A stretch of DNA of 64,000 bases, taken from contig WJKM01000019.1 in the NCBI GenBank assembly GCA_014729085.1, positions 836 through 64,835 on the forward strand, read 5' to 3'. The position numbers were made by a program, and so were the translations under genes. Shown in pieces: positions 7,679-62,496 of the stretch. The first letter of the stretch is position 1. Each line of letters begins with the position of its first letter. The notes beneath the pieces were generated by a model. That model saw nothing but the letters and a program-made list of their open reading frames with translations, was not told the origin of the DNA and searched no databases. Source of the DNA: Candidatus Dojkabacteria bacterium. GTDB lineage: Bacteria > Patescibacteriota > Dojkabacteria > B142 > WJKM01.

Positions 7679-7695
7679 TAAACTTCATACAAATA

Positions 7696-7722
7696 TAAAA
7701 AAATCCGCCTTTTGGCGGATAT
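7696..7722 (-). terminator. Rho-independent terminator (A7 + atccgcc-ttttg-gcggat) downstream of the transketolase C-terminal-section gene
   Basis: Perfect 7-bp stem preceded by an A-tract on the plus strand. A near-duplicate imperfect hairpin lies at 7752-7769. Confidence 0.6.
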
Positions 7723-7889
7723 ACTAAATTACCTAGAATCAAACAAATTCTATCCGCCTAGTGGTGGATTTCAAAAAAGAAAAAGAATTTGTTATTTTCC
7801 TGGTATATATTCATTATGTGTATATTATACCCTATAATATATTCTCTGTCAACTACTTAATTAATAGCTAGTATATTAACAAAGCATAT

Positions 7890-8867
7890 CTAAAAAATCA
7901 AGCTCGAAATTTGCTTTCTCAGACTCTTCCGATCAAGACCATATTTAGACCACAAATCTCTATGACTTCCAGACTCTCCAAAAGTATCCTTTATACCTAT
8001 GCATTTAATTTCAACAGGATGCTTTTCTCCTAACAATCTTGCAACGCTTTCTCCAAGACCGCCCCAAATGTTATGTTCTTCTACTACTATCACTTTGTTC
8101 GTTTTTTTGGCTGATTTTAATATTATTTCCTTATCAAGTGGCTTAACTGTATGAATATTCAATAAATCAATACTCAATCCATCTTCAATTAAAGGAAGTA
8201 ATGCCTGTATAGTCTCATAAACCATAGATCCCGTTGCTATTACAGTTAAATCATCTCCTTTTATTAGTTTTTGTGCTTTACCTATTTCAAATTCCGAATC
8301 CGGTTTTAGAAATACTGGAAATTTTGCTCTAGTGACCCGTAGATAGGCTGGCCCCTTCATTTCTGAGATTAGCTTTGTAGCCTGCATTGCTTGATTATAA
8401 TCGGCTGGTGTGATAATTGTGATACCTGCAAGCGACTTCATCATGCCTAAATCGGAATTCATCTGAGCACTAGCACCGTCCTCTCCAACATTCAAACCAT
8501 AATGTGATCCAACTACTTTAATATTTTGTTTACAAATTGCAGCTAAACGAATCTGGCTGAAATTTAATCCCGGGCTAAATGCTGCAAAAGATGTAATAAA
8601 AGGAATTTTTCCAACTATTTCCAAACCAGTTGCAATGCCAGCCATATTCTGTTCAGCAACTCCTACCTGAACAAACTGATTAGGTAGCTCTTTTTCAAAT
8701 TTCTTAACCCTCAAAGATCCCGGTAAGTCTGCATTTAAAACAATAATATCTTTATTATCTTTCCCAAGTTTTAAAATCATTTCTCCAAAACCATCTCGTA
8801 ATGCTTTTTGTTCAAGCTTTGATTCGTTTTTCCAATCTCTTAAAAAATAGTTCGACATTTTATTCAT
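7890..8867 (-). CDS. Transketolase, C-terminal section (pyrimidine-binding and C-terminal domains)
   Basis: ...QVGVAEQNMAGIATGLEIVGKIPFITSFAAFS... typical of TktB-type split transketolase. Confidence 0.85.
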   Translation of the reverse strand: MNKMSNYFLRDWKNESKLEQKALRDGFGEMILKLGKDNKDIIVLNADLPGSLRVKKFEKELPNQFVQVGVAEQNMAGIATGLEIVGKIPFITSFAAFSPGLNFSQIRLAAICKQNIKVVGSHYGLNVGEDGASAQMNSDLGMMKSLAGITIITPADYNQAMQATKLISEMKGPAYLRVTRAKFPVFLKPDSEFEIGKAQKLIKGDDLTVIATGSMVYETIQALLPLIEDGLSIDLLNIHTVKPLDKEIILKSAKKTNKVIVVEEHNIWGGLGESVARLLGEKHPVEIKCIGIKDTFGESGSHRDLWSKYGLDRKSLRKQISSLIF

Positions 8868-8905
8868 TTAGTAAATTAAAACACTAACCTAACGTTACAT
8901 TCTGT

Positions 8906-9613
8906 TTAATAGGTAACATGCACCTCATGGATCCATATCTTCTCAGGTCTTAACAACATATACTTAACCACATCTGCAAGATCAGCGGGATCAGTAAATT
9001 TGTCAATAGGTACTTCTTCCTCCGTTTTTTCAAACATTTTCGTATTTGTTCCACTTTGATAAACTGCCCCAACTCTTACATTTGTGTCTTTCAAATCTTC
9101 CTTTAGTACATCAGTAAAACCCTTAACACCCCACTTGCTAGCTGTATAAACTGACTGTCCTTTCTGAGCTGTGACACCTGATTTGGATGAAATATTTATA
9201 ATTGCTGCATCTTCTTCCTCTCTTAAAATTGGAAGTGTGGATTGAGTAACATGAATAACTGCTGTTAAATTTGTCGCAATTACTTCCTCAATAGTCTCAG
9301 GGTGTATTTCATCTAAGTCCATCATTTTTTGCCAAATTCCAGCATTATTAATTAAGATATTAATTTTCCCAAAGTCATTCTTTATTGATTCTACTGCAGA
9401 TCCAATTCTTTCTTTGTCTTTCAAATCACAAATATAATATTTAACTTTTGGACTTCCTAATTGTTCACATTCTGATTTGACTTGTTCCAGTCGTTTTTCT
9501 GACCTGGCAACTAATGCAATTTCCACTTCTTCTTCTGCCAACCTCAAAGCTATCTGTTTACCTATTCCATCGCTAGAACCTGTGATAATCGCAACCTTAT
9601 TTTTAAGTTTCAC
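8906..9613 (-). CDS. SDR-family short-chain dehydrogenase/reductase
   Basis: TGSSDGIG cofactor motif, NNAG, and a YxxxK active site (YTASKWGVKG). Confidence 0.85.
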   Translation of the reverse strand: MKLKNKVAIITGSSDGIGKQIALRLAEEEVEIALVARSEKRLEQVKSECEQLGSPKVKYYICDLKDKERIGSAVESIKNDFGKINILINNAGIWQKMMDLDEIHPETIEEVIATNLTAVIHVTQSTLPILREEEDAAIINISSKSGVTAQKGQSVYTASKWGVKGFTDVLKEDLKDTNVRVGAVYQSGTNTKMFEKTEEEVPIDKFTDPADLADVVKYMLLRPEKIWIHEVHVTY

Positions 9614-9672
9614 TATTTTTTTATTAATAATTTAAAATAGAAATTACTACAAAAATAATATAATTATTGACT

Positions 9673-10506
9673 TTAATACAAATCAGATAATTTCTGCCTC
9701 AATTGCCTTAAGGCTTCTTTGACCTCTTCACCATCATCAGTCCAATCATGGTACTCGAATTTATTCTCCATAAAATCTACACCTTTTCCAGGAGTTGTAT
9801 GTGCAATAATTAAAGTAGGCTGTTTTTTAATCTTGTTTACAAATTCAAAACAAGATAATAAATGCTCTATATTATGACCGTTTACATCTAAAACCATCCA
9901 GCCAAAATCCTCATATTTATTTTTCAAATCACCCAGAGGCATAATATCTGAAATATTCCCATCTATTTGAATCTTGTTGTAATCAATTATGCCAACTAAA
10001 TTATCAAGGAAATATTTGGATGCTGACATTGCAGCTTCCCAAGTCTGTCCCTCTTGTTGTTCACCATCTGACATTATGCAGAAAACTTTATTCTTCATTT
10101 TTTTCATTTTCAGACCTAATGCAACTCCAACAGCTTGAGACAGACCATGCCCAAGCATACCGCTTGAATTCTCGACTCCAGGTATATTTATTTTGGGATG
10201 TCCCTGCAATAATGAATCAACTTTTCTGAGCTTATCTAGTTTTTTTCTATCAAAATATCCTATATTGGCTAAAATTGCGTACCAAATAGGACAGATATGG
10301 CCATTTGATACTAAAATGTAATCCCTTTCTTTCCAGTCTGGTTTTTTAGGATCAATATTGGCTATTTCATTGTATAAAAGAGTAAAAATCTCTGCCATGC
10401 CAAATGCACCCCCGACATGGCCGGATCCCGCTTTATCAAGCATTTTGATCACATCTATTTTCAGCTCTATAGATTTCTTTTTAAGTTCTTTGATTTTTTT
10501 ATTCAT
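9673..10506 (-). CDS. Transketolase, N-terminal section (thiamine diphosphate-binding)
   Basis: GHVGGAFGMAEIFTLLY, GHGLSQAVGVALG and the DGEQQEGQTWEA ThDP-binding region. Confidence 0.85.
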   Translation of the reverse strand: MNKKIKELKKKSIELKIDVIKMLDKAGSGHVGGAFGMAEIFTLLYNEIANIDPKKPDWKERDYILVSNGHICPIWYAILANIGYFDRKKLDKLRKVDSLLQGHPKINIPGVENSSGMLGHGLSQAVGVALGLKMKKMKNKVFCIMSDGEQQEGQTWEAAMSASKYFLDNLVGIIDYNKIQIDGNISDIMPLGDLKNKYEDFGWMVLDVNGHNIEHLLSCFEFVNKIKKQPTLIIAHTTPGKGVDFMENKFEYHDWTDDGEEVKEALRQLRQKLSDLY

Positions 10507-10525
10507 AATAAATTTTATATTATTT

Positions 10526-11020
10526 CTAAGTTACTTTTTTAGTCATATCAATAAAAGTTTCTTTATACCCGCTTTTCTTATATATGTCATGAGCAATATG
10601 ATTGCCCGCCGCAACTCCCAGTTTCAGTATTTTACATCCTTTCGAAAGCAAATATTTTTCCATTTTCTTAAAAAGAGTAGATCCAATCCCTTTGTTACGA
10701 TACTTCTCTTTAATAAAAATCCTTGAAATTTCGCCAACCTTGTTATCACCTAATTCAATCAAAGACCTTTCTGTTTTCTCTTTAATATAACAAGCTCCAA
10801 ATCCAATTAAATGTTCTTTATATTCTACTACATAAAAAATTCCATTATTAGAATTTACCTTATCCAAAATATATCTAACAAAAAACTCACCATAATTGGT
10901 ATCTGTTTTTCTTAAATCAAAAGGATACAATTTAATATGATAATCTTCATTGATAACCATTAAATTCAACAGATCTTGATAATCTGACTTATTATATTCC
11001 CTTATTTGATAACCTTGCAT
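10526..11020 (-). CDS. GNAT-family N-acetyltransferase
   Basis: RNKGIGSTLFKKMEKYLLSKGC (acetyl-CoA-binding motif A). Confidence 0.75.
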   Translation of the reverse strand: MQGYQIREYNKSDYQDLLNLMVINEDYHIKLYPFDLRKTDTNYGEFFVRYILDKVNSNNGIFYVVEYKEHLIGFGACYIKEKTERSLIELGDNKVGEISRIFIKEKYRNKGIGSTLFKKMEKYLLSKGCKILKLGVAAGNHIAHDIYKKSGYKETFIDMTKKVT

Positions 11021-27230: not shown

Positions 27231-27812
27231 ATGAAAAAATATATTGCAATAGTTGGAACAATTGCGGCCGGAAAAACCACTGCCTGCAAATATTTTCAAC
27301 AAAAAGGCTATATCCACTATAAACTGAGCCAAGGAATTTATGATGAAGCTGATAAAAGAGGACTTGACAGAACAGACAGAGTAATACTGCAAGACCTGGG
27401 AGATGAACTTAGAGAAAACCACGGAGTAGATGTACTTGCAAAGATTATTATCAAAAAAATTAAAAAAGATGATGACTCGAAAAAGTATGTGTTTGATAGC
27501 ATTAGAAATCATAATGAGATACTTACTTTACAAAAAGCTTTTGGTAAGGATCTAGTCGTAATAGCAATAGATGCCCCAATCAAGCTGAGGTATAAACGTG
27601 CTGTGGAACGCAAGGGTCAGTATAAAGAACAAAATCTTACCTTCCAAGAATTCAAAAAAAATAATGATAGAGATTTAGGAAAGGGAAATGCAGAAAATGA
27701 ACAAAACGTAATTAAATGCATAAGCCTTGCTGATTACAACGTACAAAATACAGGTAGTTTAAAGCAACTCAAATCTAAACTGGATAAAATATCCCAAAAG
27801 GAAAATGAATAA
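27231..27812 (+). CDS. P-loop nucleoside/nucleotide kinase-like protein
   Basis: Walker A IAIVGTIAAGKTT. Small, overlaps the downstream Nudix gene by 8 nt. Substrate unknown. Confidence 0.5.
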   Translation: MKKYIAIVGTIAAGKTTACKYFQQKGYIHYKLSQGIYDEADKRGLDRTDRVILQDLGDELRENHGVDVLAKIIIKKIKKDDDSKKYVFDSIRNHNEILTLQKAFGKDLVVIAIDAPIKLRYKRAVERKGQYKEQNLTFQEFKKNNDRDLGKGNAENEQNVIKCISLADYNVQNTGSLKQLKSKLDKISQKENE

Positions 27813-28311
27813 TTACTTAAGATATACTCAAGCCTCTGTAACCAATTTTTTGCATTATGAGGATTATTATCTTTTTATCAAACGTAAAAATAACAAACGT
27901 ATAGATCCTGGACGGTTGAATGGTATTGGAGGTAGACTTGAGCAAGGGGAGAATTACTTGGATGCATGTATTAGAGAAACAAAAGAAGAAACAGGTCTAA
28001 ACCCAAATATTAACGACATAAAATTCTCAGGCCTTGTAAGACTTCAAGAAGGTTATAGCGAAGATTGGATCATGGGTTTTTTTAAAATTAAAGTTAAGTC
28101 AAAAAAGATACCAAAAAAACACACTGAGGATGGAAAATTAGTTTGGATAAAAAAAGACAAAGTACTAGAATCAAAATTTGAACTTGTAGATGATTTATAT
28201 TATTGCTTTAATGATATTGTAGAAGGAAAAAGTATTTTCTTCATAAGTGCTATTTTGGACGAAAACGAAAAAATCAAAAAAATTCAAAAAAATCTGTTAC
28301 CTGTATATTAA
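27805..28311 (+). CDS. NUDIX hydrolase
   Basis: Nudix box GGRLEQGENYLDACIRETKEETGL. Confidence 0.75.
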   Translation: MNNYLRYTQASVTNFLHYEDYYLFIKRKNNKRIDPGRLNGIGGRLEQGENYLDACIRETKEETGLNPNINDIKFSGLVRLQEGYSEDWIMGFFKIKVKSKKIPKKHTEDGKLVWIKKDKVLESKFELVDDLYYCFNDIVEGKSIFFISAILDENEKIKKIQKNLLPVY

Positions 28312-47768: not shown

Positions 47769-48540
47769 TTTTTAAATTATTTGAATCCTTAAATATTTTA
47801 ATAAATAAAAAAGTAGCACTAATACTTGCTATCGGAATATACAAGAAATTAACTACAGGTATTGTAAATAATAAAGTAGAAATCAACCCAAAGATAATAA
47901 ACAAATCGACATTTGATAAGATTGTTGTTGCTTTTTGTTTGAAAGAATAATGAATTCGTTCAAAAGAAGGGTCTGTTAAGTCAAGAATATTAATAAAAAT
48001 ATTAAATCCATAATTAATGCAAACAAAGAATATATTTCCCACTACTGGAATTAAGTTTATTAATGAAGTTACAATAAAGATCAAAATTGTTAATAGTATT
48101 TTAATGAATTCAAATTTGATAGCCCTTCCCATCTCAAATATGAGAAGTTTCACTCCTTTATATCGCTGTACTTTTTGAATACGGTGTTCTTTAAGAATTT
48201 TCTCAATAATAATACCGTTAAATGGAGCGCTTATTATCATTCCCATTAGTAGAAAAAACCACAAAACAATAATCAAAGTAAAAATTATTCCAAAGAATCT
48301 CGCTAAATCCGGAATAAATGCAAAATCTTCTAGTTGTATATAATTAAGTCCTGAATTTATTAATTCCAAAATCCTTGAATAGAAAAAAATGAAAATAACG
48401 ATTGATAATATGAGATTAAGAATAAACGGAAGAATCAATAAAGGCCAAATTTGAATATTTCTTAAAATATATTTAACAGATTTTAGAATAACTCCGAAGG
48501 AAAAAAATATTCTTCTAATAATCCTTAAGAACTTCATCAA
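47758..48540 (-). CDS. Hypothetical polytopic membrane protein
   Basis: 260 aa with ~6-7 hydrophobic helices. Confidence 0.45.
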   Translation of the reverse strand: MMKFLRIIRRIFFSFGVILKSVKYILRNIQIWPLLILPFILNLILSIVIFIFFYSRILELINSGLNYIQLEDFAFIPDLARFFGIIFTLIIVLWFFLLMGMIISAPFNGIIIEKILKEHRIQKVQRYKGVKLLIFEMGRAIKFEFIKILLTILIFIVTSLINLIPVVGNIFFVCINYGFNIFINILDLTDPSFERIHYSFKQKATTILSNVDLFIIFGLISTLLFTIPVVNFLYIPIASISATFLFIKIFKDSNNLKSEP

Positions 48541-48998
48541 TATTTATTAATAGTAAAATCTATCAATTTCGAGCCTGAATGTACAAATTTGGCAGTAAAG
48601 AAATTAGGTTTTTCAAGAAGAGCAAAAATATGTTCGTAACTTGGCCAGATATTAAGCTTGCATAGATTATTATTTTCAATCCATTTTAACTCCCCTTCTT
48701 TACATTTTTGAATTTGTCCCGAATAACGATTTACAAGAAAAACATAACCGTACCATACTACTTTTTCATGTACGAATATTGCTAGACCTCTAAAATAAGC
48801 ATTTTGAACTAAAAGACCCGTTTCTTCTTTAACTTCTCTTGAAAGAGCTTCTTCCGGACTTTCTCCGACCTCGATTCCGCCACCTATACCTAGCCACTTA
48901 CCTTTGTGTAGATCATTTATTTTCTTGTTCCTATAAAGCATTAGGGTTTTATTACGCTTCTTAATAAAACCTAATACTCCCTGATTTTGTTTTTTCAT
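48537..48998 (-). CDS. NUDIX hydrolase
   Basis: GGGIEVGESPEEALSREVKEETGL Nudix box. Confidence 0.75.
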   Translation of the reverse strand: MKKQNQGVLGFIKKRNKTLMLYRNKKINDLHKGKWLGIGGGIEVGESPEEALSREVKEETGLLVQNAYFRGLAIFVHEKVVWYGYVFLVNRYSGQIQKCKEGELKWIENNNLCKLNIWPSYEHIFALLEKPNFFTAKFVHSGSKLIDFTINKY

Positions 48999-50004: not shown

Positions 50005-50703
50005 GTGCAACCAAATAATCCACAACAACCAAATCAACAGCAACCAAATAACCCACAACAGCCAAATCAACAACAAGCAAATAATCCACAGCAGCCGAAG
50101 CAACAGCAACCGAACCCACCTACTCAACAAACACCAACAACTAATCAGCCCGCCCAATCTATGCAATCTAGTCAGCCTGCTCAACCAGCGCAGCAAACCC
50201 AAGCTCCTAATCAGCAAGCACAACCAGGAGCTAGTAATATTGCAGGGCCAATATCAACACCTACTACAACTCAAACACCTCCACAACAAAAAACCCCTGT
50301 CACACCGGGAACAAGTCCAGCAACAGGTGGAACTGCTGGAGGAGGACTACCACCTATTAAACCCAATAAACCAGCGGGAATGGGGAACTCACCAACTGGA
50401 TCAAAACCGAAGAATTCTAATGTAATGCTCATTGTAGTTGTACTATTCGTAATAATAGCTGGTATTGGAGGATTTTTAGGATACCAATTCATGTTTAGTA
50501 ATCAGCCTACTGATGAAAATCCAACACCAACTCCAACTCAAATGATTGAAGAAACCCAACCTGCAACACCAGATGATCTAATACCAACAAGCGGAGATAC
50601 ACTGGAGGAAACAGCAACACCGGAGGTTACAGAAATGGAAGAAGATGATTCCGAAACAATGCTTGATGAAGATATGACAGATACTGAAGCACCTGTTGAA
50701 TAA
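50005..50703 (+). CDS. Q/P/N/T-rich low-complexity protein with a single TM helix and acidic C-terminus
   Basis: MQPNNPQQPNQQQPNNPQQPNQQQANNPQQP...; TM VMLIVVVLFVIIAGIGGFLGYQF. Underlying imperfect ~30-33-bp nucleotide repeats. Confidence 0.55.
   Translation: MQPNNPQQPNQQQPNNPQQPNQQQANNPQQPKQQQPNPPTQQTPTTNQPAQSMQSSQPAQPAQQTQAPNQQAQPGASNIAGPISTPTTTQTPPQQKTPVTPGTSPATGGTAGGGLPPIKPNKPAGMGNSPTGSKPKNSNVMLIVVVLFVIIAGIGGFLGYQFMFSNQPTDENPTPTPTQMIEETQPATPDDLIPTSGDTLEETATPEVTEMEEDDSETMLDEDMTDTEAPVE
50008..50130 (+). repeat. Imperfect tandem repeats encoding (P-Q-Q-P-N-Q-Q-Q-x-N-N)n
   Basis: caaccaaataa(t/c)ccacaacagccaaatcaacagcaa-type units repeated about 3.5 times. Confidence 0.6.
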
Positions 50704-50822: not shown

Positions 50823-53800
50823 ATGTTTAAACCCATAGATCCCAAGCAAAATTTTCCAGAGTTAGAAACAGAAATAATAAAATTTTGGAAAGAAAACGAT
50901 ATTTTTGAAAAACAGGTTGAATCAAAACCAGAAGATAATAAATTTGTATTCTATGATGGTCCTCCTTTTATCACTGGACTTCCACATTATGGACATTTAT
51001 TAGGAAGTATTGCAAAAGATATAATCCCACGATACCACGCTATGCTTGGTAGTAGAGTTGAACGTGTTTGGGGCTGGGATTGTCATGGGCTTCCAATAGA
51101 AAATAAAGTGGAAAAAAAGCTTGGTTTACGTAACAGAAGAGAAATTGAAGAACTAGGAATAGATAAGTTCATAAGTCACTGTTATGAATATACCAGAGAT
51201 GTATCCGCTGAATGGAATTGGTATGTAGACAGAATTGGAAGATGGGCAGACATGGATAATGCATATAGGACAATGGATCAAAACTATATGGAAACTGTAA
51301 TGTGGATTTTTAAACAACTTTACAAAAAAGATCTCATATATGAAGGTGTGAGAACTTCTCTTTTCTGTACAAGATGCGGGACTCCAGTTTCAAATTTTGA
51401 AATTGCTATGGATAATTCATATACAAACATGAAAGATCCTGGAGTTACAATAAAGTTTCAAATTAACGAGAATAAAATAAAAAGCCAGAATCCCAACAAA
51501 ACTATTTTTTTAATATCTGGGAAATATGCTTTTGCAAGTAATAATTACTTCCCAAGAATTAAAGACTTATTAGAAGCAAAAGGTTTCAATGTTCAGATTA
51601 TTGACCATAAAGAGCCAGAATCACCACAATTATCTGATAATTTAAAATTTTTTAATAAATTTGATTTTTCCAAATCAATTGTTATCACTCATTCACTTGG
51701 AGCTCTTACGCTGCTTCATCATCTAGCAGATAATCCAAATCAAAAAATCGATGAACTTATCATGCTTGCTCCACCACATCCAGAACGATATGGCGGATCT
51801 AATAAGGAATGGGCTGATAATTCAGGATATTTTGATGATGATACACAGATCAATTTAGATATAATTTCAAAACGAATCTCAAAAGCAACCATAATATATT
51901 CAGATGATGAACTGGTACATAAAAATGAATTCGAAGATTTAGCAGAAAAACTAAATGCTAAATTAATAATGGAAAAGAATAAAAAACATTTCTTTGCAAA
52001 GAATTATGAACATGAACCTGAATTTCTTCAAAAATATCTTGAAAAACTGCAAAATAAAGCTAATGCGAAAGAAACAAATAGTAAAATTCCTACTTATCTT
52101 CTAGCTTGGACAACAACTCCATGGACCCTGCCGTCAAACCGGGCTTTGGTTGTAGATCCAAAAGGAGATTACGTAAAAATACAAAGAGAAGTAGAGGTAA
52201 AAGAAAGAATTGGTGCAGGTGGATTTATTTATAATCCTAAGAAAAAGCAATTTTTAGTTCTAAAACACAAAAACGGGATAACTTTTACTTCTTTAGTACA
52301 AGGTGTCAAAGAAGAAGGTGAGACATATGAACAAACAATAATGAGGGAGGCAATCGAAGAAACCGGTTATACCGACATGAAGATTGTCAAGGAACTCGGA
52401 GAATCTCATTATCAATGGCCATGGAAAGGAAATACTATCAGCGACAGAAAATATAAATATTTTCTTTTGGAGCTTGAAAGTGGAAAAAGACAGAAACAAC
52501 AACTTGAAGAGGGAGAGGAATTTGAAATAGCCTGGGTCACCTATGATCAATTAATTGACCGTCTTTCATTTGATGATCTTAAAATATTCGCCAAAAAAGT
52601 AATCAACCATTATGAAGGGAAGGATGATGATCAGCTAATAAAAACAGAAAATTATATTATTACTAACTCCAGTTTTAAAGAGAACTTAATACTTGGAAAA
52701 AATCGTATTGAGGAAACTCTTGGAGACTGTGAATATAAAATCATAGAGGAATTTAAGGGGAAGAAACTATTGGGACTTTCATATGAACCTATATATGATT
52801 TTATCCCGGGTAATGAAAATGATTTTAAAGTGTATGCCTATGAAGATATGGTACAAGCAGACGAAGGAGTCGGAATTGTCCATTCAGCTCCAGGATTTGG
52901 CGAAATTGACAGTGAAATGGGAAAGGAGCTTGGACTCACTATGATGCTTACCATTAATGATGAAGGAAAATTCAAATCCGAAATCAAAGACTATTCCGGA
53001 ATGTACTTTAAAAAAGCCGATCTACCGATAGTGATCGACCTAATTAGTCGAAATATCTTGTTTAAACTTGAAGAGATTGAACACAGATATCCATTCTGTT
53101 ATAGATGCGAAACTCCCCTACTTCAAAAAGCACAGAAATCTTGGTTTTTGAATATTCAAAAAATAAAAGATAATTTAATCGAAAATAATGAATATATAAA
53201 TTGGGTACCCGATCATATAAAAGAAGGAAGATTTAAAAAGGGACTTGAAACTGCTCCTGATTGGTGTATATCAAGGTCTAGATATTGGGGAACCCCTATG
53301 CCTATTTGGCAGGCCAAAGATACAAATGGGCATATTACTGAAAGATTGGTAATAGGTTCTCGAGATGAACTTATGGAAAGAAATGACAAAATTACAAAAA
53401 TAATATTTGTTCGACATGGTGATCGAGAAGAAGGTCTCAATGGAGCTTTAACTGATAAAGGAAAAAAGCAGGCAGAAAAACTAACTGAATATTTAACAGA
53501 CCAGGACATTGACTTAATTATAAGTAGTGAGGTTGACCGTTGTATAAAAACTGCAGAACCTCTTTCTAAAAAACTTGGAATCGATATTAAAACTGATCCA
53601 AGATTTGGATCTTCAGAAAGAAAAAAACTTATAGATGACATAAAGAAAAAAGATAACACAACTAATTTTAGAGAACTATCTGACAAAGCCCTCAAGGAAT
53701 ACAAAGATCAGTTATTTGCAAAGGATAAACAGGCACTAATTGAATTAAATAAAAACTTTGAGGGTAAAACTATTGTTGTATTCACACATGCTGAGGTAAT

Positions 53801-55439
53801 TGCCTCTGCATCTCACATTCTCGAAGGAGGGAAATTATCAAATCATATGAAAAGATCCCCTAAACCGGGCGAACACTATACAATGTATATGTATGAAGGT
53901 GAATTACTTGATCTTCATAGACCAGTTATTGATAATATAGTTCTTAAAGGTGACAAAGAAAATGAATTAAAACGTATATCTGAAACACTAGATGTTTGGA
54001 TGGAATCTGCTTCCATGCCATACGCTCCAAAACATTATCCATTTGAAAATAAAAAAGATGTTGAAGACAATTTCCCAGCTGATTACATCTCGGAATACAT
54101 AGCTCAAACTCGTGCATGGTTTTACGTGATGCATGTAGTATCCACTGCTTTGGTTGATTCCCATTGTTTTAAAAATTGTGTTGTATCCGGTGTGATCATG
54201 GGAAATGATGGAAGAAAAATGAGCAAAAGCTTTGGTAACTATCCAGATCCTAAAGGTGTTCTTGAATCCTATGGTGGAGATGCATTAAGAATGTACCTGC
54301 TTTCAACACCATTACTAAAAGCAGAAAATGTTGATATTGATGAACAAGATATTAAGGGACAAATACGAGATTTTATACTCCCTCTTTGGCACACATACAA
54401 ATTTCTACTTACATATGCCAAAATTTACAATTGGACACCTAATGCAAATCTTATTAGTAAAGAAAGAGACAAACAGAATAAAGACAGCATTTGGGAAAAT
54501 GTTCCATTTACGGATGAACAAAATGAACTTGATAGATGGATTGTGGCTAGATTACAAAAATGTATTCGAGATATCAAAATTAAATTGGATGAATATGATA
54601 TTCCAGGAGCAACAAATGAACTCCCAACCTTTTTAAATGACATATCAAGATGGTATATTCGAAGATCTAGAAACAGATTTAAAAATGGAGACAGGAAAGC
54701 CCTTGACACATTATATTTTGTACTGGTGGAATATATTAAGCTAATCGCTCCATTTACTCCTTTTATATCTGAAGCTATTTATCAAAATCTCGTAAAAAAT
54801 TGTGAGGTTTTTGAAAATGAACCAGAATCAGTCCACCTTTGTGACTATCCAAGGCAGGATCTTGCCTATTTAGAAAATAATCTAGAACTGCTATTTAATA
54901 TGGAAACAGTTCGAGCAATATGTGCACTTGGGCAATCACTGAGAGTCGAAAATGGACTAAAAGTAAGGCAACCACTTGCAAAAATTGAAGTTAGTGTAGA
55001 CAGGGAAGTTGAGGAAGAGAGAGAAATTCAAACATGGATGAAAAAAATAATTAAAAAAGAGCTTAATGTAAAGGAGGTAGTTGAAATTTTAAGAGCAGAC
55101 GAACAATTGAAAGGAAACAATTTTGTTTCAGCAACTGACCAAAAAGCAAAGATAAAAATTACAATGGATTTAAATCTAACCGAAGAATTAAAAGAAGAAG
55201 GACTCTACCGTGAAATTGTTCGAAATATACAATCACATAGAAAAAAACAGGGGTTAAAATTTGGAGAAAAGGTTGGAATTACAATTTATTCCAAATCAAA
55301 GGAAATAAATAAATGCATGGAAAAACATGAGAAAGAACTAAAGAAAGATGTGACACTGTCAGATCTAATAATCGGAAAAAATGATGGAAAAGAAATCAAA
55401 ATAAATGGAGAATCAACAAAAATAAAAATAAACAAATAA
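50823..55439 (+). CDS. ileS: Isoleucyl-tRNA synthetase (type 2) with three inserted hydrolase domains, 1538 aa
   Basis: IleRS core: FVFYDGPPFITGLPHYGHLL (HIGH), WTTTPWTLPSN (CP1), SRSRYWGTPMPIW, DVWMESASMPYA, KMSKS (RKMSKSFGNYPDP). Insert 1 (~51468-52097): YdeN/RBBP9-type serine hydrolase with ITHSLGA (GxSxG) and KKHFF. Insert 2 (~52143-52637): Nudix with REAIEETG. Insert 3 (~53328-53987): histidine phosphatase with FVRHGDRE and VVFTHAEVI. Confidence 0.85.
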   Translation: MFKPIDPKQNFPELETEIIKFWKENDIFEKQVESKPEDNKFVFYDGPPFITGLPHYGHLLGSIAKDIIPRYHAMLGSRVERVWGWDCHGLPIENKVEKKLGLRNRREIEELGIDKFISHCYEYTRDVSAEWNWYVDRIGRWADMDNAYRTMDQNYMETVMWIFKQLYKKDLIYEGVRTSLFCTRCGTPVSNFEIAMDNSYTNMKDPGVTIKFQINENKIKSQNPNKTIFLISGKYAFASNNYFPRIKDLLEAKGFNVQIIDHKEPESPQLSDNLKFFNKFDFSKSIVITHSLGALTLLHHLADNPNQKIDELIMLAPPHPERYGGSNKEWADNSGYFDDDTQINLDIISKRISKATIIYSDDELVHKNEFEDLAEKLNAKLIMEKNKKHFFAKNYEHEPEFLQKYLEKLQNKANAKETNSKIPTYLLAWTTTPWTLPSNRALVVDPKGDYVKIQREVEVKERIGAGGFIYNPKKKQFLVLKHKNGITFTSLVQGVKEEGETYEQTIMREAIEETGYTDMKIVKELGESHYQWPWKGNTISDRKYKYFLLELESGKRQKQQLEEGEEFEIAWVTYDQLIDRLSFDDLKIFAKKVINHYEGKDDDQLIKTENYIITNSSFKENLILGKNRIEETLGDCEYKIIEEFKGKKLLGLSYEPIYDFIPGNENDFKVYAYEDMVQADEGVGIVHSAPGFGEIDSEMGKELGLTMMLTINDEGKFKSEIKDYSGMYFKKADLPIVIDLISRNILFKLEEIEHRYPFCYRCETPLLQKAQKSWFLNIQKIKDNLIENNEYINWVPDHIKEGRFKKGLETAPDWCISRSRYWGTPMPIWQAKDTNGHITERLVIGSRDELMERNDKITKIIFVRHGDREEGLNGALTDKGKKQAEKLTEYLTDQDIDLIISSEVDRCIKTAEPLSKKLGIDIKTDPRFGSSERKKLIDDIKKKDNTTNFRELSDKALKEYKDQLFAKDKQALIELNKNFEGKTIVVFTHAEVIASASHILEGGKLSNHMKRSPKPGEHYTMYMYEGELLDLHRPVIDNIVLKGDKENELKRISETLDVWMESASMPYAPKHYPFENKKDVEDNFPADYISEYIAQTRAWFYVMHVVSTALVDSHCFKNCVVSGVIMGNDGRKMSKSFGNYPDPKGVLESYGGDALRMYLLSTPLLKAENVDIDEQDIKGQIRDFILPLWHTYKFLLTYAKIYNWTPNANLISKERDKQNKDSIWENVPFTDEQNELDRWIVARLQKCIRDIKIKLDEYDIPGATNELPTFLNDISRWYIRRSRNRFKNGDRKALDTLYFVLVEYIKLIAPFTPFISEAIYQNLVKNCEVFENEPESVHLCDYPRQDLAYLENNLELLFNMETVRAICALGQSLRVENGLKVRQPLAKIEVSVDREVEEEREIQTWMKKIIKKELNVKEVVEILRADEQLKGNNFVSATDQKAKIKITMDLNLTEELKEEGLYREIVRNIQSHRKKQGLKFGEKVGITIYSKSKEINKCMEKHEKELKKDVTLSDLIIGKNDGKEIKINGESTKIKINK

Positions 55440-55497: not shown

Positions 55498-56127
55498 ATG
55501 TCAAAAAATCCATTTCTGCACGATTTACCAAAACCAAAGAAAAAAATTACGAAAATTTTTCTTGATATTTTGCAATTTATAGTAATATTACTTGCCTTAG
55601 TAGTAGTTTGTTACTTATTTTTGGTTATTCCAAATCAAGTTGATGGAGATTCGATGTTGCCAAATTTCCATGATAAAGAACTATTATTGACAAACAAAAT
55701 AATACAACTAATTGGTGACAAAAAATTTATGGAAAAATATGACTATAACTATAAGAGAGGAGATGTTGTGATTTTCCAAAAACCTGACCACCCTGATTTT
55801 ATAAAAAGAGTAATTGCTCTACCTGGGGATAAAATTATGATTCAGGGAGGATATATATACATAAATGGCCAAAAAATAACCGAGGCTTATTTACCAAAAG
55901 ATAGACAAACAAGAACCTACTCCTTCATGTCTGAAGGCGAAACGAAAATCGTACCTGAAGATCAATATTTTCTTATGGGAGATAATAGAAACAACAGCAA
56001 AGACTCTAGATTCTCAGATATTGGTTTTGTTTCAAGAGAACATCTTAAAGGTCGAGTTTTTCTGAGATATTGGCCACTCGACTCTTTTGAGGTAATAAAA
56101 ACCGGAGAAATAAACTATTCTAATTAA
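55498..56127 (+). CDS. lepB: Signal peptidase I
   Basis: GDSMLPNF (catalytic Ser), KRVIALPGD (Lys) and GDNRNNSKDSR boxes. Confidence 0.85.
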   Translation: MSKNPFLHDLPKPKKKITKIFLDILQFIVILLALVVVCYLFLVIPNQVDGDSMLPNFHDKELLLTNKIIQLIGDKKFMEKYDYNYKRGDVVIFQKPDHPDFIKRVIALPGDKIMIQGGYIYINGQKITEAYLPKDRQTRTYSFMSEGETKIVPEDQYFLMGDNRNNSKDSRFSDIGFVSREHLKGRVFLRYWPLDSFEVIKTGEINYSN

Positions 56128-56138
56128 CTTCTTTTAAA

Positions 56139-56810
56139 ATGCAGAAAAATAACAAACCAGAAAAATTTAAGAACTTTCTTAAGGAAACAGCACAAACTAT
56201 TATTACTTCATTATTATTGACCTTTTTCATTTATCAATTCATTGCACGGCCGAATCAAGTAAAAGGTGCATCCATGATCCCCAATATTCAACATAATGAA
56301 TTAATTTTTACAAACCAAATGAAGCATATAGTAAGCAATACAGCCCTTGGGCACAAAATGCATTGGGAATACAAAAGAGGTGAAATCGTTATATTTCAAC
56401 TCCCCGGATACGAACCGTATATTAAAAGAATAATAGCTCTTCCAGGAGAAAATATAACTATACAAAATAGAAAGGTTTATATAAATGGTAAACTCTTAAT
56501 TGAAGAATATTTACCAGAGGGAGAAGTTACTTTACAAGGGGATTTTCTTACTGAAGGTACCACCCGCAGGGTTCCTGCGAATTCTTATGTTATGCTTGGC
56601 GATAATCGAACAAATAGTCGCGATTCAAGGTATTCATCTGTTGGTTTTGTACCGCATGCATACATAATTGGTCCAGCAGCTTTAAGGATATTGCCCCTGA
56701 CAAGAATTGGGTTTGTCCATATTGGAGATTATCATCTTGATTCAAAGCGTAAAGTACTTAATATTAAACCACAGGGTACGGAAATATCAGGTGAAATTTT
56801 AGGAGAATAA
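56139..56810 (+). CDS. Signal peptidase I (tandem paralogue)
   Basis: GASMIPNI, KRIIALPGE and GDNRTNSRDSR. Confidence 0.85.
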   Translation: MQKNNKPEKFKNFLKETAQTIITSLLLTFFIYQFIARPNQVKGASMIPNIQHNELIFTNQMKHIVSNTALGHKMHWEYKRGEIVIFQLPGYEPYIKRIIALPGENITIQNRKVYINGKLLIEEYLPEGEVTLQGDFLTEGTTRRVPANSYVMLGDNRTNSRDSRYSSVGFVPHAYIIGPAALRILPLTRIGFVHIGDYHLDSKRKVLNIKPQGTEISGEILGE

Positions 56811-61944: not shown

Positions 61945-62496
61945 ATGGTTAAACCATACAAAACTATATCCTCAAAAACTGTTTATAAATCAAAGTTTAT
62001 TGAAATCAAGAAAGATAACTTTGTGGCTCCTAATGGCATTCAAGGCGAATACTAGTATATGAGCGATAAAGCTCAGAGAGTGCATGCAATAGGCCTGGAT
62101 AAGGATAAGAACTTCATTCTTACTAAACAGTATCGCTATCCAATAAAAACCGTAGTGATTGATGTCGCCGGAGGAGTACCTGAACAAAATGAATCCACTC
62201 AACAAGCCGCAGAAAGAGAATTCTTTGAAGAAACAGGCTATAAAGGTCAGAAAATAATTCATTTAGGTAAATGTTCTATAGAACAGGCAAAAGCGGATTA
62301 TTGGCTATATGAATACTTAATTCTAGATTGTTCTCAAAAAGGGAAAATTCATGGTGGTGAAAAAGTCGAGGAAACCGAAGTTTTTAAGCTTCCTGTAAAT
62401 AAGGCATGGAATTATATAAAAAATAATAGAATAGTTTCCTGCCATTCGATTTCAACAATTACTAAAGCTTTGCTATACCTCCAAATAAAAAAATAA
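61945..62496 (+). pseudogene. NUDIX (ADP-ribose-pyrophosphatase-like) gene interrupted by a single in-frame TAG at 62053-62055
   Basis: MVKPYKTISSKTVYKSKFIEIKKDNFVAPNGIQGEY-TAG-YMSDKAQRVHAIGLDKDKNFILTKQYRYP...EREFFEETGYKG. Both parts are in the same frame, and together match the ADPRase N-terminal beta strands plus Nudix box. Confidence 0.6.

What the first reader, a model, noticed from the sequence alone, without database searches (positions are those of the whole stretch)
50823..55439. Isoleucyl-tRNA synthetase carrying three inserted hydrolase domains (serine hydrolase, Nudix, histidine phosphatase)
A single uninterrupted 4.6-kb ORF encodes a type-2 IleRS that is ~500 aa longer than normal. 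All canonical blocks are present in order: HYGH, TTPWTLPSN (CP1 editing), SRSRYWGTPMPIW, DVWMESAS and KMSKS. Three complete enzyme domains are inserted at surface-loop positions.
- A YdeN/RBBP9-type alpha/beta serine hydrolase (HSLGA) sits just before the editing domain.
- A Nudix domain (REAIEETG) sits inside CP1.
- A histidine-phosphatase (RHG...H) domain sits between the catalytic core and the KMSKS region.

All three inserts are hydrolases. Class I aaRS make aminoacyl-AMP and Ap4A, and Nudix enzymes are classic Ap4A/NDP-X hydrolases, so these inserts could add nucleotide-by-product clearance, extra proofreading or regulation to the synthetase. That functional idea is inference. Stand-alone Nudix genes also occur four times elsewhere in this window. 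I am not aware of an IleRS with this architecture.
Basis: partly seen in the sequence, partly recalled or inferred. Interest (0 to 1): 0.85.

Follow-up and report, generated by a model that had tools for sequence, protein, structure and literature searches.

The report
IleRS carrying three nested hydrolase domains
This is a real isoleucyl-tRNA synthetase gene from a Dojkabacteria (candidate-phyla-radiation) bacterium with three complete small hydrolase enzymes nested in its surface loops, the fullest case found here of a habit, not found described in the searchable literature, in which these bacteria fill the same few loops of IleRS and LeuRS with interchangeable hydrolase modules.

Summary
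ORF 50823..55439 (+) encodes a 1538-aa type-2 IleRS with intact HIGH, KMSKS and CP1 editing motifs. It scores 759.6 bits on TIGR00392 (cut-off 621.4).

Three domains pass Pfam's curated cut-offs and keep their catalytic motifs:
- Ser_hydrolase, aa 213-424.
- NUDIX, aa 456-619.
- His_Phos_1, aa 857-1026.

AlphaFold2 models the Nudix and His-phosphatase inserts at high confidence. The serine hydrolase is less confident and sits between flexible linkers.

It is not an assembly chimera. An identical protein is in NCBI (Candidatus Dojkabacteria), and independent assemblies carry the same three-insert layout.

The main new point is scope. Patescibacteria IleRS have insertion hot spots whose occupants differ between lineages (Ser hydrolase, Nudix, CYTH, His phosphatase). 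LeuRS has hot spots at equivalent positions, holding Ser hydrolase, Nudix and probably Ham1. The same Ser hydrolase family is also nested in a UvrB and appended to a NusA.

Best reading: a working IleRS that carries autonomous, probably active hydrolase modules. I found three stand-alone Nudix genes in the window, not four. I found no paper describing this. Novelty: new variant of a known kind.

The parts
50823..55439 (+). Whole ileS ORF (1538 aa + stop): type-2 isoleucyl-tRNA synthetase with three nested domains
   Evidence: ORF listing. TIGR00392 ileS scores 759.6 bits against a cut-off of 621.4. Best solved relatives are eukaryotic, T. thermophilus and Priestia type-2 IleRS. Identical to an NCBI Candidatus Dojkabacteria protein.
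50823..51458 (+). N-terminal half of the Rossmann catalytic fold, with HIGH motif HYGH (aa 55-58, nt 50985-50996)
   Evidence: Aligned to human IARS1 residues 6-217. Motif position. Many columns are invariant across 91 homologues.
51459..52094 (+). Insert S0: YdeN/RBBP9-type alpha/beta serine hydrolase (aa 213-424). Putative triad Ser291 (HSLGA), Asp361 or Asp362 (YSDDE), His389 (KKHFF).
   Evidence: Pfam PF06821 scores 35.8 bits against a cut-off of 22. B. subtilis YdeN 1uxo, E=2.6e-7. The Ser, Asp and His columns are invariant in 7 embedded copies. In the AF2 model this region is helices and strands with block-mean pLDDT from 55 to 92, flanked by linkers 220-224 and 416-419 with pLDDT below 50.
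52095..52187 (+). Start of the CP1 editing domain, with Thr-rich motif WTTTPWTLPSN (aa 429-439)
   Evidence: Aligned to human IARS1 220-249. W429, T430-T432, P433, W434, T435 and N439 are invariant.
52188..52679 (+). Insert S1: Nudix hydrolase (aa 456-619) at the tip of a beta-hairpin inside CP1. Full Nudix box at aa 494-516 (R508, E509, E512, E513).
   Evidence: Pfam PF00293 scores 61.7 bits against a cut-off of 21.1. Closest solved structures are Aquifex Ap4A hydrolase 3i7u (1.9e-6) and T. thermophilus Ndx1 1vc8 (5.4e-5). The Nudix box is kept in 15 of 17 S1 Nudix copies. AF2 block-mean pLDDT is 87-97, mostly 95-97.
52680..53390 (+). Rest of CP1 (editing His687 and Asp696 in HSAPGFGEID) and the second half of the catalytic fold, up to WCISRSRYWGTPMPIW
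   Evidence: Aligned to human IARS1 271-489. H687 and D696 are invariant.
53391..53900 (+). Insert S2: histidine phosphatase, branch 1 (aa 857-1026). Catalytic set Arg864, His865, Arg906, Asp925, His989.
   Evidence: Pfam PF00300 scores 69 bits against a cut-off of 21.7. Phosphoserine phosphatase 4ij5, E=1.4e-3. Motifs are intact in the query and its closest relatives but lost in roughly a third of Dojkabacteria copies. AF2 block-mean pLDDT is 89-98. The insert replaces a zinc-knuckle loop.
53901..54530 (+). DLHRP, DVWMESAS and KMSKS (aa 1132-1136) region of the catalytic domain
   Evidence: Aligned to human IARS1 from residue 495 onward. K1132, M1133, S1134 and K1135 are invariant.
54531..54980 (+). 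Anticodon-binding helical domain (aa 1237-1386)
   Evidence: Pfam PF08264 scores 95 bits.
55140..55436 (+). C-terminal domain found in type-2 IleRS relatives (DUF5915, aa 1440-1538)
   Evidence: Pfam PF19302 scores 60.4 bits. The same domain is listed in all 120 homologues.

Best explanation
The ORF is a working type-2 isoleucyl-tRNA synthetase, probably the organism's own. Its synthetic site (HIGH, KMSKS) and CP1 editing site are intact.

Three complete small hydrolases are nested in its chain at structurally permissive junctions:
- A YdeN/RBBP9-type serine hydrolase in the linker that leads into CP1.
- A Nudix hydrolase at the tip of a beta-hairpin inside CP1.
- A histidine phosphatase in the loop that is a zinc knuckle in insert-free relatives.

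This is the fullest example of a Patescibacteria-wide pattern. IleRS and its paralogue LeuRS have a few insertion hot spots, two of them at equivalent positions. Different lineages fill them with modules from a small repertoire: Ser hydrolase, Nudix, CYTH, His phosphatase, and Ham1 in LeuRS.

Most likely each module folds on its own and acts as a tethered small-molecule hydrolase, while the core charges tRNA-Ile as usual. The large, essential and presumably constitutively expressed synthetase would serve as a permissive carrier.

Shown: the architecture, the motifs, the fold confidence, and the recurrence across lineages and hosts. Inferred: that the modules are catalytically active, and that they act independently of aminoacylation.
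For: Identity of the core:
- TIGR00392 scores above its cut-off.
- Catalytic and editing residues are invariant across 91 homologues.
- The fold matches type-2 IleRS structures.

The three domains:
- All pass Pfam cut-offs and keep their catalytic motifs.
- AF2 over aa 1-1200 gives mean pLDDT 89.2 and pTM 0.79. The S0 insert is bounded by low-confidence linkers.

Not an artefact:
- An identical NCBI protein exists. The same layout occurs in P0003 and L002, and one- or two-insert forms occur in many independent assemblies.
- Insert G+C matches the core.

Modularity in IleRS:
- S0 holds Ser hydrolase, Nudix or an unknown 129-aa domain.
- S1 holds Nudix (17 proteins) or CYTH (46). The CYTH profile hits NeuTTM 3typ and 2fbl at 3e-13.
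- S2 holds His phosphatase (60), Ser hydrolase (4) or an unknown 80-aa domain (2).
- A fourth site inside CP1 is used in L045.
- His-phosphatase at S2 also occurs in Paceibacteria-type and Gracilibacteria IleRS.

Other hosts:
- LeuRS has three hot spots, two of them equivalent to IleRS S0 and S2. They carry Ser hydrolase and Nudix. Ham1 and, rarely, Y1_Tnp domains are also listed in these LeuRS, but I did not map their sites.
- The same Ser hydrolase family is nested in a UvrB and appended to a NusA. This argues for generic nesting rather than an IleRS-specific function.

Inserts evolve faster than the core but are conserved: 33-48% identity against 63-70% among the closest relatives.
Against: - The repertoire is narrow and consists only of hydrolases, most acting on phosphate esters or anhydrides. 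Six of the eight large hosts I identified among the 150 best Ser hydrolase hits are class Ia synthetases. This looks less like random carriage and more like selection for a function tied to the synthetase.
- Embedded Ser hydrolase copies cluster by host: 13 of 13 IleRS copies and 50 of 53 LeuRS copies have a nearest neighbour in the same host. The query's copy is closest to copies at other sites of IleRS in other phyla.
- Two insert-free ileS loci have a stand-alone His-phosphatase or Ser hydrolase gene beside them. That sample is biased by how the loci were retrieved.
- No enzymatic activity has been measured.
- No model coordinates were available, so I could not check where the modules sit relative to the active sites.
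- I could not test whether this is the only IleRS in the genome.
Confidence: 0.55

Rival explanations
1. Functional coupling. The nested hydrolases act on products or intermediates of the synthetase itself. Nudix (or CYTH in sister lineages) would destroy Ap4A, Ap3A, p4A or PPPi made from the aminoacyl-adenylate. The serine hydrolase would act as an extra esterase on aminoacyl esters such as mischarged tRNA 3' ends. The His-phosphatase would remove a phosphomonoester from a nucleotide product. Together they would form a built-in by-product clearance or quality-control unit on class Ia synthetases.
For: - All inserted families are hydrolases, and Nudix, CYTH, Ham1 and His-phosphatase act on phosphate esters or anhydrides.
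- Nudix and CYTH alternate at exactly the same hairpin, even within subclades.
- The closest solved Nudix relatives are Ap4A and Ap6A hydrolases. The closest CYTH relative is the triphosphatase NeuTTM.
- Hot spots cluster around the CP1 editing domain in both IleRS and LeuRS.
- Embedded Ser hydrolase copies are host-specific lineages that have changed site within IleRS.
- Stand-alone His-phosphatase or Ser hydrolase genes lie next to insert-free ileS in L064 and L038.
- RBBP9, a PF06821 member, is reported to hydrolyse valacyclovir, the valyl ester of a nucleoside analogue (Shenoy et al. 2020, as cited in PMC7730578).
Against: - The same Ser hydrolase family is nested in a UvrB and appended to a NusA.
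- Many IleRS in the clade lack S0, S1 or all inserts.
- About a third of Dojkabacteria His-phosphatase inserts have lost RHG or carry large internal deletions, yet are retained.
- PDB similarities are weak (E about 1e-6) and no NCBIfam equivalog cut-off is met, so substrates are unknown.
- The closest stand-alone Ser hydrolases are not next to ileS.
- The neighbourhood cases are subject to retrieval bias.
Confidence: 0.3
2. Non-catalytic passengers. The inserts were fixed by drift in small-population, genome-reduced epibionts. They now serve only as structural filler or interaction surfaces and are on their way to decay.
For: - The His-phosphatase at S2 shows repeated loss of catalytic residues and internal deletions while its C-terminal roughly 70 aa are always kept. 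This suggests a structural role, and it coincides with loss of the zinc-knuckle cysteines.
- Two Nudix copies are degenerate (P0004 and the S1 copy of P0058).
- Inserts evolve faster than the core.
- Presence and absence are mosaic across lineages.
Against: - In this window's protein all three catalytic motif sets are intact.
- The Ser-Asp-His triad is invariant in all 7 embedded copies compared. The Nudix box is kept in 15 of 17 copies, and the CYTH ExExK glutamates are invariant in 15 of 15.
- The Paceibacteria-type and one of the two Gracilibacteria His-phosphatase inserts keep canonical RHGE and a downstream (S/T)HE/G/D histidine motif.
Confidence: 0.1
3. Assembly or gene-calling artefact. 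Separate hydrolase genes were joined to ileS fragments by misassembly.
For: The source is a metagenome-assembled genome and reads could not be mapped. The look-up of encoding contigs had no record for this exact protein.
Against: - One continuous frame has the inserts inside conserved IleRS blocks that continue in register on both sides.
- The identical protein is in NCBI on a 74.6-kb contig.
- The same three-insert layout is found at about 54% identity in P0003 (Logan assembly) and L002 (NCBI MAG, 44.7-kb contig). P0008 and L001 carry all three inserts in a form truncated at the N-terminus.
- G+C is uniform along the gene.
Confidence: 0.02

Closest known systems
Type-2 (eukaryote-like, mupirocin-resistant type) isoleucyl-tRNA synthetase, e.g. 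Priestia megaterium IleRS2 (8c8u, 8c8v), T. thermophilus IleRS (1ile), yeast and human cytoplasmic IleRS (7d5c, 9w01)
   Same: The core sequence and predicted fold match. HIGH and KMSKS are present, CP1 editing has its Thr-rich motif and His/Asp, and the anticodon-binding domain is present; the C-terminal DUF5915 domain is shared with all 120 homologues. TIGR00392 scores above its cut-off.
   Different: It carries 546 extra residues as three autonomous enzyme domains, at positions corresponding to human IARS1 217/220, 249/271 and 489/495. The zinc-knuckle cysteines flanking the third site are lost.
NCBIfam NF040702 'isoleucine--tRNA ligase, N-acetyltransferase domain-containing' (ileS_w_GNAT)
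   Same: A catalogued case of a bacterial IleRS that contains an extra enzyme domain.
   Different: The extra domain there is a GNAT acetyltransferase, not a hydrolase. The query scores 262.5 bits against a cut-off of 1999, so it is not a member. I did not examine where the GNAT sits.
CP1 editing domain of class Ia synthetases (IleRS, ValRS, LeuRS), the classic hydrolytic domain nested in the Rossmann fold
   Same: A hydrolase inserted into the catalytic fold of the synthetase. The new inserts sit at the CP1 junctions or inside CP1. A 2026 survey notes synthetases among preferred hosts for domain insertion and lists the LeuRS editing domain as an insertion-only module (PMC13114784).
   Different: CP1 is universal, ancient and known to be coupled to aminoacylation. 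The modules here are lineage-specific and interchangeable. They belong to families that normally exist as stand-alone enzymes, and coupling has not been demonstrated.
Stand-alone relatives of the modules: B. subtilis YdeN (1uxo) and human RBBP9; Aquifex Ap4A hydrolase (3i7u) and T. thermophilus Ndx1 (1vc8); phosphoserine phosphatase PspA (4ij5); NeuTTM (3typ, 2fbl) for the CYTH variant
   Same: Same Pfam families, with conserved catalytic motifs.
   Different: Similarity is low (E from 1e-3 to 1e-7 for single sequences) and no equivalog-level match exists, so substrate specificity cannot be transferred. Here the domains are internal segments of another enzyme.

Membership tests
Isoleucyl-tRNA synthetase (class Ia, type 2) | Scores above the curated cut-off of the ileS equivalog model TIGR00392 | tested here: met
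   759.6 bits against a cut-off of 621.4, in four stretches because of the inserts. valS and leuS models fall far below their cut-offs.
Isoleucyl-tRNA synthetase (class Ia, type 2) | Class I signature motifs HIGH and KMSKS | tested here: met
   HYGH at aa 55-58 and KMSKS at aa 1132-1136. K1132 to K1135 are invariant in 91 homologues.
Isoleucyl-tRNA synthetase (class Ia, type 2) | CP1 editing domain with a Thr-rich motif and conserved His/Asp | tested here: met
   WTTTPWTLPSN at aa 429-439, and H687 and D696 in HSAPGFGEID, all invariant.
Isoleucyl-tRNA synthetase (class Ia, type 2) | Overall fold and C-terminal domains of type-2 enzymes | tested here: met
   Foldseek best hits are type-2 IleRS: 6ldk, 7d5c, 8c8v, 1ile (E about 1e-51 to 1e-57). 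Type-1 enzymes score lower. Anticodon_1 and DUF5915 match in Pfam; DUF5915 is shared by all 120 homologues.
Isoleucyl-tRNA synthetase (class Ia, type 2) | Charges tRNA-Ile with isoleucine; sole IleRS of the genome | not testable with these tools
   Needs biochemistry and the complete genome. The window holds no tRNA genes and no second ileS.
Nudix hydrolase (PF00293) | Nudix box GX5EX7REUXEEXGU and a Pfam score above the gathering cut-off | tested here: met
   GVKEEGETYEQTIMREAIEETGY at aa 494-516. 61.7 bits against 21.1.
Ap4A/ApnA-hydrolase subgroup of Nudix | Specific similarity to characterised Ap4A hydrolases, or an equivalog-level match | tested here: inconclusive
   The best PDB hits are Ap4A hydrolase 3i7u (1.9e-6) and Ap6A hydrolase Ndx1 (5.4e-5), but they are weak. 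NCBIfam Nudix equivalogs are far below their cut-offs.
Histidine phosphatase superfamily, branch 1 (PF00300) | RHG nucleophile motif, second Arg, acid residue, second His, and a Pfam score above the cut-off | tested here: met
   R864, H865, G866, R906, D925 and H989. 69 bits against 21.7. No equivalog cut-off is met, for example cobC at 42 against 162.9.
Ser_hydrolase PF06821 (YdeN/RBBP9 alpha/beta hydrolases) | Pfam score above the cut-off and a Ser-Asp-His triad | tested here: met
   35.8 bits against 22. YdeN 1uxo at 2.6e-7. S291, D361/D362 and H389 fall in columns that are invariant in 7 embedded copies. The triad assignment is by alignment, not by structure.
Intein or other self-removing insertion | Cys/Ser/Thr (rarely Ala) as the first insert residue, a C-terminal His-Asn, and Cys/Ser/Thr as the first residue after the insert | tested here: not met
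   The inserts begin with Q, E and I, and end with PT, FK and EG. They are followed by Y, E and E. No Hint or intein family appears among the Pfam hits.
NF040702 ileS_w_GNAT; NF000257/NF000258 MupA/MupB | Score above the curated cut-off | tested here: not met
   262.5 against 1999; 568 and 560 against 1900.

The most novel reading that the evidence does not exclude
Class Ia synthetases of Patescibacteria (IleRS, LeuRS) have evolved a new, modular layer of quality control or by-product control. Interchangeable hydrolase cassettes (Nudix or CYTH, His-phosphatase, YdeN-type esterase, Ham1) are plugged in around the CP1 editing domain. There they would degrade adenylate-derived polyphosphates (Ap4A, p4A, PPPi) and possibly hydrolyse mis-esterified tRNA ends. 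That would be a second, lineage-specific set of editing-like modules on a synthetase.
Probability: 0.28. Interest if true: 0.85.

Novelty: new variant of a known kind. Interest (0 to 1): 0.68.

Why it matters
Aminoacyl-tRNA synthetases are among the most conserved enzymes. In bacteria they rarely carry extra catalytic domains beyond the editing domain.

Here one polypeptide combines a synthetase with up to three further enzymes. Across Patescibacteria the same loops of IleRS and LeuRS behave like sockets for a small set of hydrolase modules.

- If the modules are merely carried, this is a clear natural map of permissive insertion sites in class Ia synthetases. That is useful for protein engineering. 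It is also an example of how genome-reduced epibionts package house-cleaning enzymes.
- If they are coupled to the synthetase, it would be a new kind of built-in control of Ap4A-type alarmones, of nucleotide by-products, or of mischarging. The test is direct and needs one recombinant protein.

The finding also explains why NCBI's annotation names these proteins only 'class I tRNA ligase family protein'.

Tried and rejected
- The look-up of encoding contigs for the exact protein found nothing on record, so I reconstructed the window context from ORFs and Pfam instead.
- The search for homologous proteins with the isolated Ser hydrolase segment returned no scored hit, not even the parent protein. 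I take this as a limit of the word index. It was replaced by an exhaustive profile search.
- Single-sequence Pfam scans of the 186-aa S1 insert of sister lineages found nothing. A profile search against PDB identified it as CYTH/TTM.
- Intein or self-splicing element: rejected on boundary residues.
- Recent horizontal acquisition of the inserts: no compositional signal.
- Origin by duplication of the neighbouring stand-alone Nudix genes: these are only distantly related to the insert, with E from 4e-6 to 1e-4.
- Gene-neighbourhood link: two suggestive loci, L064 and L038, are insert-free; a third, L018, already carries the insert. The loci had been ranked with the three-insert query, so the sample is biased. 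The closest stand-alone Ser hydrolases lie beside unrelated genes such as gyrB, HAD, GDSL, rpiB and hicAB.
- Six literature searches found no description of this architecture.
- The Foldseek search of the whole model returned only synthetases and said nothing about the modules.

Full report
**Observation**

The window holds a single ATG-initiated ORF at 50823..55439 (+) encoding 1538 aa. The DNA is about 32% G+C, where an open frame of 4.6 kb cannot arise by chance.

Pfam finds a split tRNA-synt_1 match, Anticodon_1 and DUF5915. It also finds three further families above their curated cut-offs:
- Ser_hydrolase PF06821: aa 259-393, 35.8 bits against 22.
- NUDIX PF00293: aa 462-589, 61.7 bits against 21.1.
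- His_Phos_1 PF00300: aa 860-1013, 69 bits against 21.7.

NCBIfam's ileS equivalog TIGR00392 scores 759.6 bits against a cut-off of 621.4, and ValRS and LeuRS models fall well below theirs. So the host protein is an IleRS. Its best solved relatives are type-2 enzymes: human, yeast and Candida cytoplasmic IleRS, T. thermophilus IleRS and Priestia IleRS2.

**Anatomy**

I aligned the 120 best homologues and compared them with the 42 insert-free IleRS of under 1000 aa in that set. The extra residues fall at three sites: aa 213-424 (S0), 456-619 (S1) and 857-1026 (S2), 546 aa in all.

On human IARS1 the sites lie between residues 217/220, 249/271 and 489/495:
- S0 is the short linker just before the CP1 motif WTTTPWT.
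- S1 is the tip of a beta-hairpin inside CP1.
- S2 is the loop between WGTPMPIW and DLHRP. In insert-free relatives this loop is flanked by CxxC...CxxC. The His-phosphatase-bearing proteins, including this one, have lost those cysteines.

The catalytic sets of all three modules are intact in the query:
- Serine hydrolase: S291 in HSLGA, D361 or D362, H389.
- Nudix: a perfect box, with R508, E509, E512, E513.
- His-phosphatase: R864, H865, R906, D925, H989.

The synthetase's own HIGH, KMSKS, Thr-rich motif and editing His687/Asp696 are invariant across 91 homologues.

An AlphaFold2 model of aa 1-1200, built with that alignment, has mean pLDDT 89.2 and pTM 0.79. The Nudix and His-phosphatase blocks mostly score 93-98. 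The serine hydrolase scores 55-92 and is bounded by linkers below 50 at aa 220-224 and 416-419. This fits discrete domains on loops. I had no coordinates, so I could not measure where the modules sit relative to the active sites.

**Not an artefact**

The identical protein is in NCBI as 'class I tRNA ligase family protein [Candidatus Dojkabacteria bacterium]' on a 74.6-kb contig. The same three-insert layout occurs at about 54% identity in P0003 (a Logan assembly) and in L002 (an NCBI MAG, 44.7-kb contig). P0008 and L001 carry all three inserts in a form truncated at the N-terminus. The G+C and GC3 of the inserts match the core.

The neighbourhood is ordinary chromosome:
- Upstream lie a Nudix gene, thioredoxin, DUF1232 and a P/Q-rich protein.
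- Downstream lie two signal peptidase I genes, ParA and a methyltransferase.
- The window holds no tRNA genes.

Three stand-alone Nudix genes are present, not four. They are only distantly related to the embedded copy.

**The wider pattern**

The sites are sockets with varying occupants.
- S0: the serine hydrolase (3 proteins), a different Nudix (3) or an unknown 129-aa domain (1).
- S1: Nudix (17), or a 186-aa domain (46) that Pfam misses by single sequence. As a profile that domain hits the CYTH/TTM triphosphatase NeuTTM (3typ, 2fbl) at 3e-13, and its ExExK glutamates are invariant.
- S2: the His-phosphatase (60), a serine hydrolase (4, inserted just upstream of the first CxxC strand) or an unknown 80-aa domain (2).

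A rough NJ tree of the core shows Nudix and CYTH alternating within subclades. It also shows scattered losses, and isolated gains outside the main clade.

About a third of the Dojkabacteria His-phosphatase copies have lost RHG or carry internal deletions, yet keep the C-terminal part of the domain.

The genome scan shows that canonical His-phosphatase inserts at S2 also occur in IleRS of Paceibacteria-type lineages and of Gracilibacteria. The Gracilibacteria genes had to be read with genetic code 25. In a Parcubacteria genome (L045) a serine hydrolase 42% identical to the query's sits at a fourth site inside CP1.

**Other hosts**

I searched a profile of the embedded serine hydrolase against 1.84 billion representative proteins. 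It found 3714 relatives: stand-alone proteins of about 190 aa and embedded copies, at comparable scores. Pfam shows the embedded copies in the following hosts:
- IleRS.
- LeuRS: one with two serine hydrolases plus Nudix, another with Ham1 plus a serine hydrolase.
- A UvrB seen on 12 contigs, beside uvrC.
- A NusA, at its C-terminus.
- A two-domain Nudix plus serine-hydrolase protein.

A survey of the 120 best LeuRS homologues of P0146, those with names being from Patescibacteria, gave about 43 with Ser_hydrolase, 21 with Nudix, 13 with Ham1 and 3 with a Y1 transposase domain (my count). They share three hot spots. Two are the exact counterparts of IleRS S0 (before TTRPDT) and S2 (after RYWGxPIP).

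Embedded serine hydrolases cluster by host: 13 of 13 in IleRS and 50 of 53 in LeuRS have a nearest neighbour in the same host. The query's copy is closest (45-48% identity) to copies at other sites in IleRS of other phyla. The S2 copies form a second group, nearer to stand-alone proteins and to the NusA copy.

**Interpretation**

The solid conclusions:
- This is a bona fide IleRS.
- It has three nested, intact hydrolase domains.
- It is the most loaded member, among the homologues surveyed here, of a clade-wide modular system that uses homologous permissive sites in two paralogous synthetases.

What the modules do is inferred. I favour autonomous, tethered hydrolases carried by a permissive, essential host (0.55), for three reasons. 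The same module occurs in unrelated hosts. Inserts are dispensable in many lineages. One module type often decays.

The repertoire is restricted to hydrolases, mostly of phosphate esters or anhydrides. Nudix and CYTH swap at one hairpin. The sites surround the editing domain. The nearest solved Nudix and CYTH relatives act on Ap4A, Ap6A and PPPi. A PF06821 member, RBBP9, is reported to cleave valacyclovir, the valyl ester of a nucleoside analogue (cited in PMC7730578).

Two insert-free ileS loci have a stand-alone His-phosphatase or serine hydrolase next door. That sample is biased by the retrieval query. The closest stand-alone serine hydrolases are not near ileS.

Pure non-catalytic passengers (0.1) and artefact (0.02) are unlikely for this protein.

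**Comparison with what is known, and novelty**

The core meets every tested defining feature of type-2 IleRS. The modules meet the sequence definitions of Nudix, His-phosphatase branch 1 and PF06821.

No equivalog-level assignment is possible, so substrates cannot be transferred. The protein is not a member of NCBIfam's IleRS-with-GNAT family, nor of MupA or MupB. The inserts lack intein boundary residues.

Domain insertion into synthetases is a known theme: CP1 itself, and the survey in PMC13114784. But six literature searches found no description of hydrolase cassettes nested in IleRS or LeuRS of Patescibacteria. I therefore rate it a new variant of a known kind. Interest is moderately high, because one recombinant protein would decide between carriage and coupling.

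Noticed in passing
window 27805-28311 (+), 48537-48998 (-), 62059-62496 (+): Three stand-alone Nudix genes lie in 64 kb. All have full Nudix boxes and pass Pfam cut-offs. They are only distantly related to the Nudix nested in ileS (E from 4e-6 to 1e-4).
   Followed up: yes
window 50005-50703 (+): Directly upstream of ileS is a 232-aa ORF. Its N-terminal half is a P/Q/N-rich low-complexity repeat (QQPNNPQQPNQQ...), followed by a hydrophobic segment and an acidic tail. It has a GTG start and no family was assigned.
   Followed up: no
window 55498-56127 (+) and 56139-56810 (+): Two tandem signal peptidase I (Peptidase_S26) paralogues lie immediately downstream of ileS, followed by a ParA-type ATPase and a methyltransferase.
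   Followed up: partly
proteins P0318, P0336, P0352 (Patescibacteria LeuRS): Three LeuRS proteins of 974-1133 aa are listed with a Y1_Tnp (PF01797, IS200-type tyrosine transposase) domain in addition to the synthetase domains. A transposase-family domain inside or fused to a synthetase might bear on how cassettes get into these genes.
   Followed up: no
proteins P0146, P0280-P0288, P0302, P0303, P0321, P0389; P0146 aa 255-326: Patescibacteria LeuRS carry a Ham1p_like (ITPase-type nucleotide pyrophosphatase) segment ahead of the editing domain, often together with a serine hydrolase or Nudix. The Pfam match in P0146 covers only profile positions 1-72 of 186.
   Followed up: partly
L081 3001-5538 (protein P0137): A UvrB has a Ser_hydrolase domain inserted at aa 441-609, before the Helicase_C domain. 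It lies near uvrC (one gene between) and was seen on 12 contigs from several sources.
   Followed up: partly
L064 5941-6582 and 7554-10538; L038 5950-8844 and 9145-9747: An insert-free ileS in a Moraniibacteriota MAG has a stand-alone His-phosphatase gene one gene upstream, with argS before that. An insert-free ileS in another Patescibacteria MAG has a stand-alone serine hydrolase directly downstream on the same strand. This is suggestive of linkage, but the loci were ranked with the three-insert query, so the sample is biased.
   Followed up: partly
window 53310-53390 and 53901-53990 (flanks of the His-phosphatase insert): Insert-free IleRS and those with a serine hydrolase at S2 keep the CxxC...CxxC zinc-knuckle cysteines around this loop. 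All the His-phosphatase-bearing Dojkabacteria IleRS shown, the query included, have lost them. The insert may therefore have taken over the structural role of the knuckle.
   Followed up: partly
L079 (Lentisphaerae MAG) match 6001-10583; proteins P0067 aa 217-345, P0075 aa 489-568, P0115 aa 494-574: Several extra segments remain unidentified. They are a 129-aa insert at S0 in P0067, an 80-aa insert at S2 in P0075 and P0115, and an unusually long tblastn span in a Lentisphaerae ileS locus whose longest ORF is only 1067 aa.
   Followed up: no
L014, L015, L023, L032, L054, L078 (Gracilibacteria and Peribacteria MAGs): These ileS genes break into pieces under genetic code 11 and read through under code 25 (UGA as Gly). 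Their IleRS also carry His-phosphatase, and in several cases Nudix segments.
   Followed up: partly
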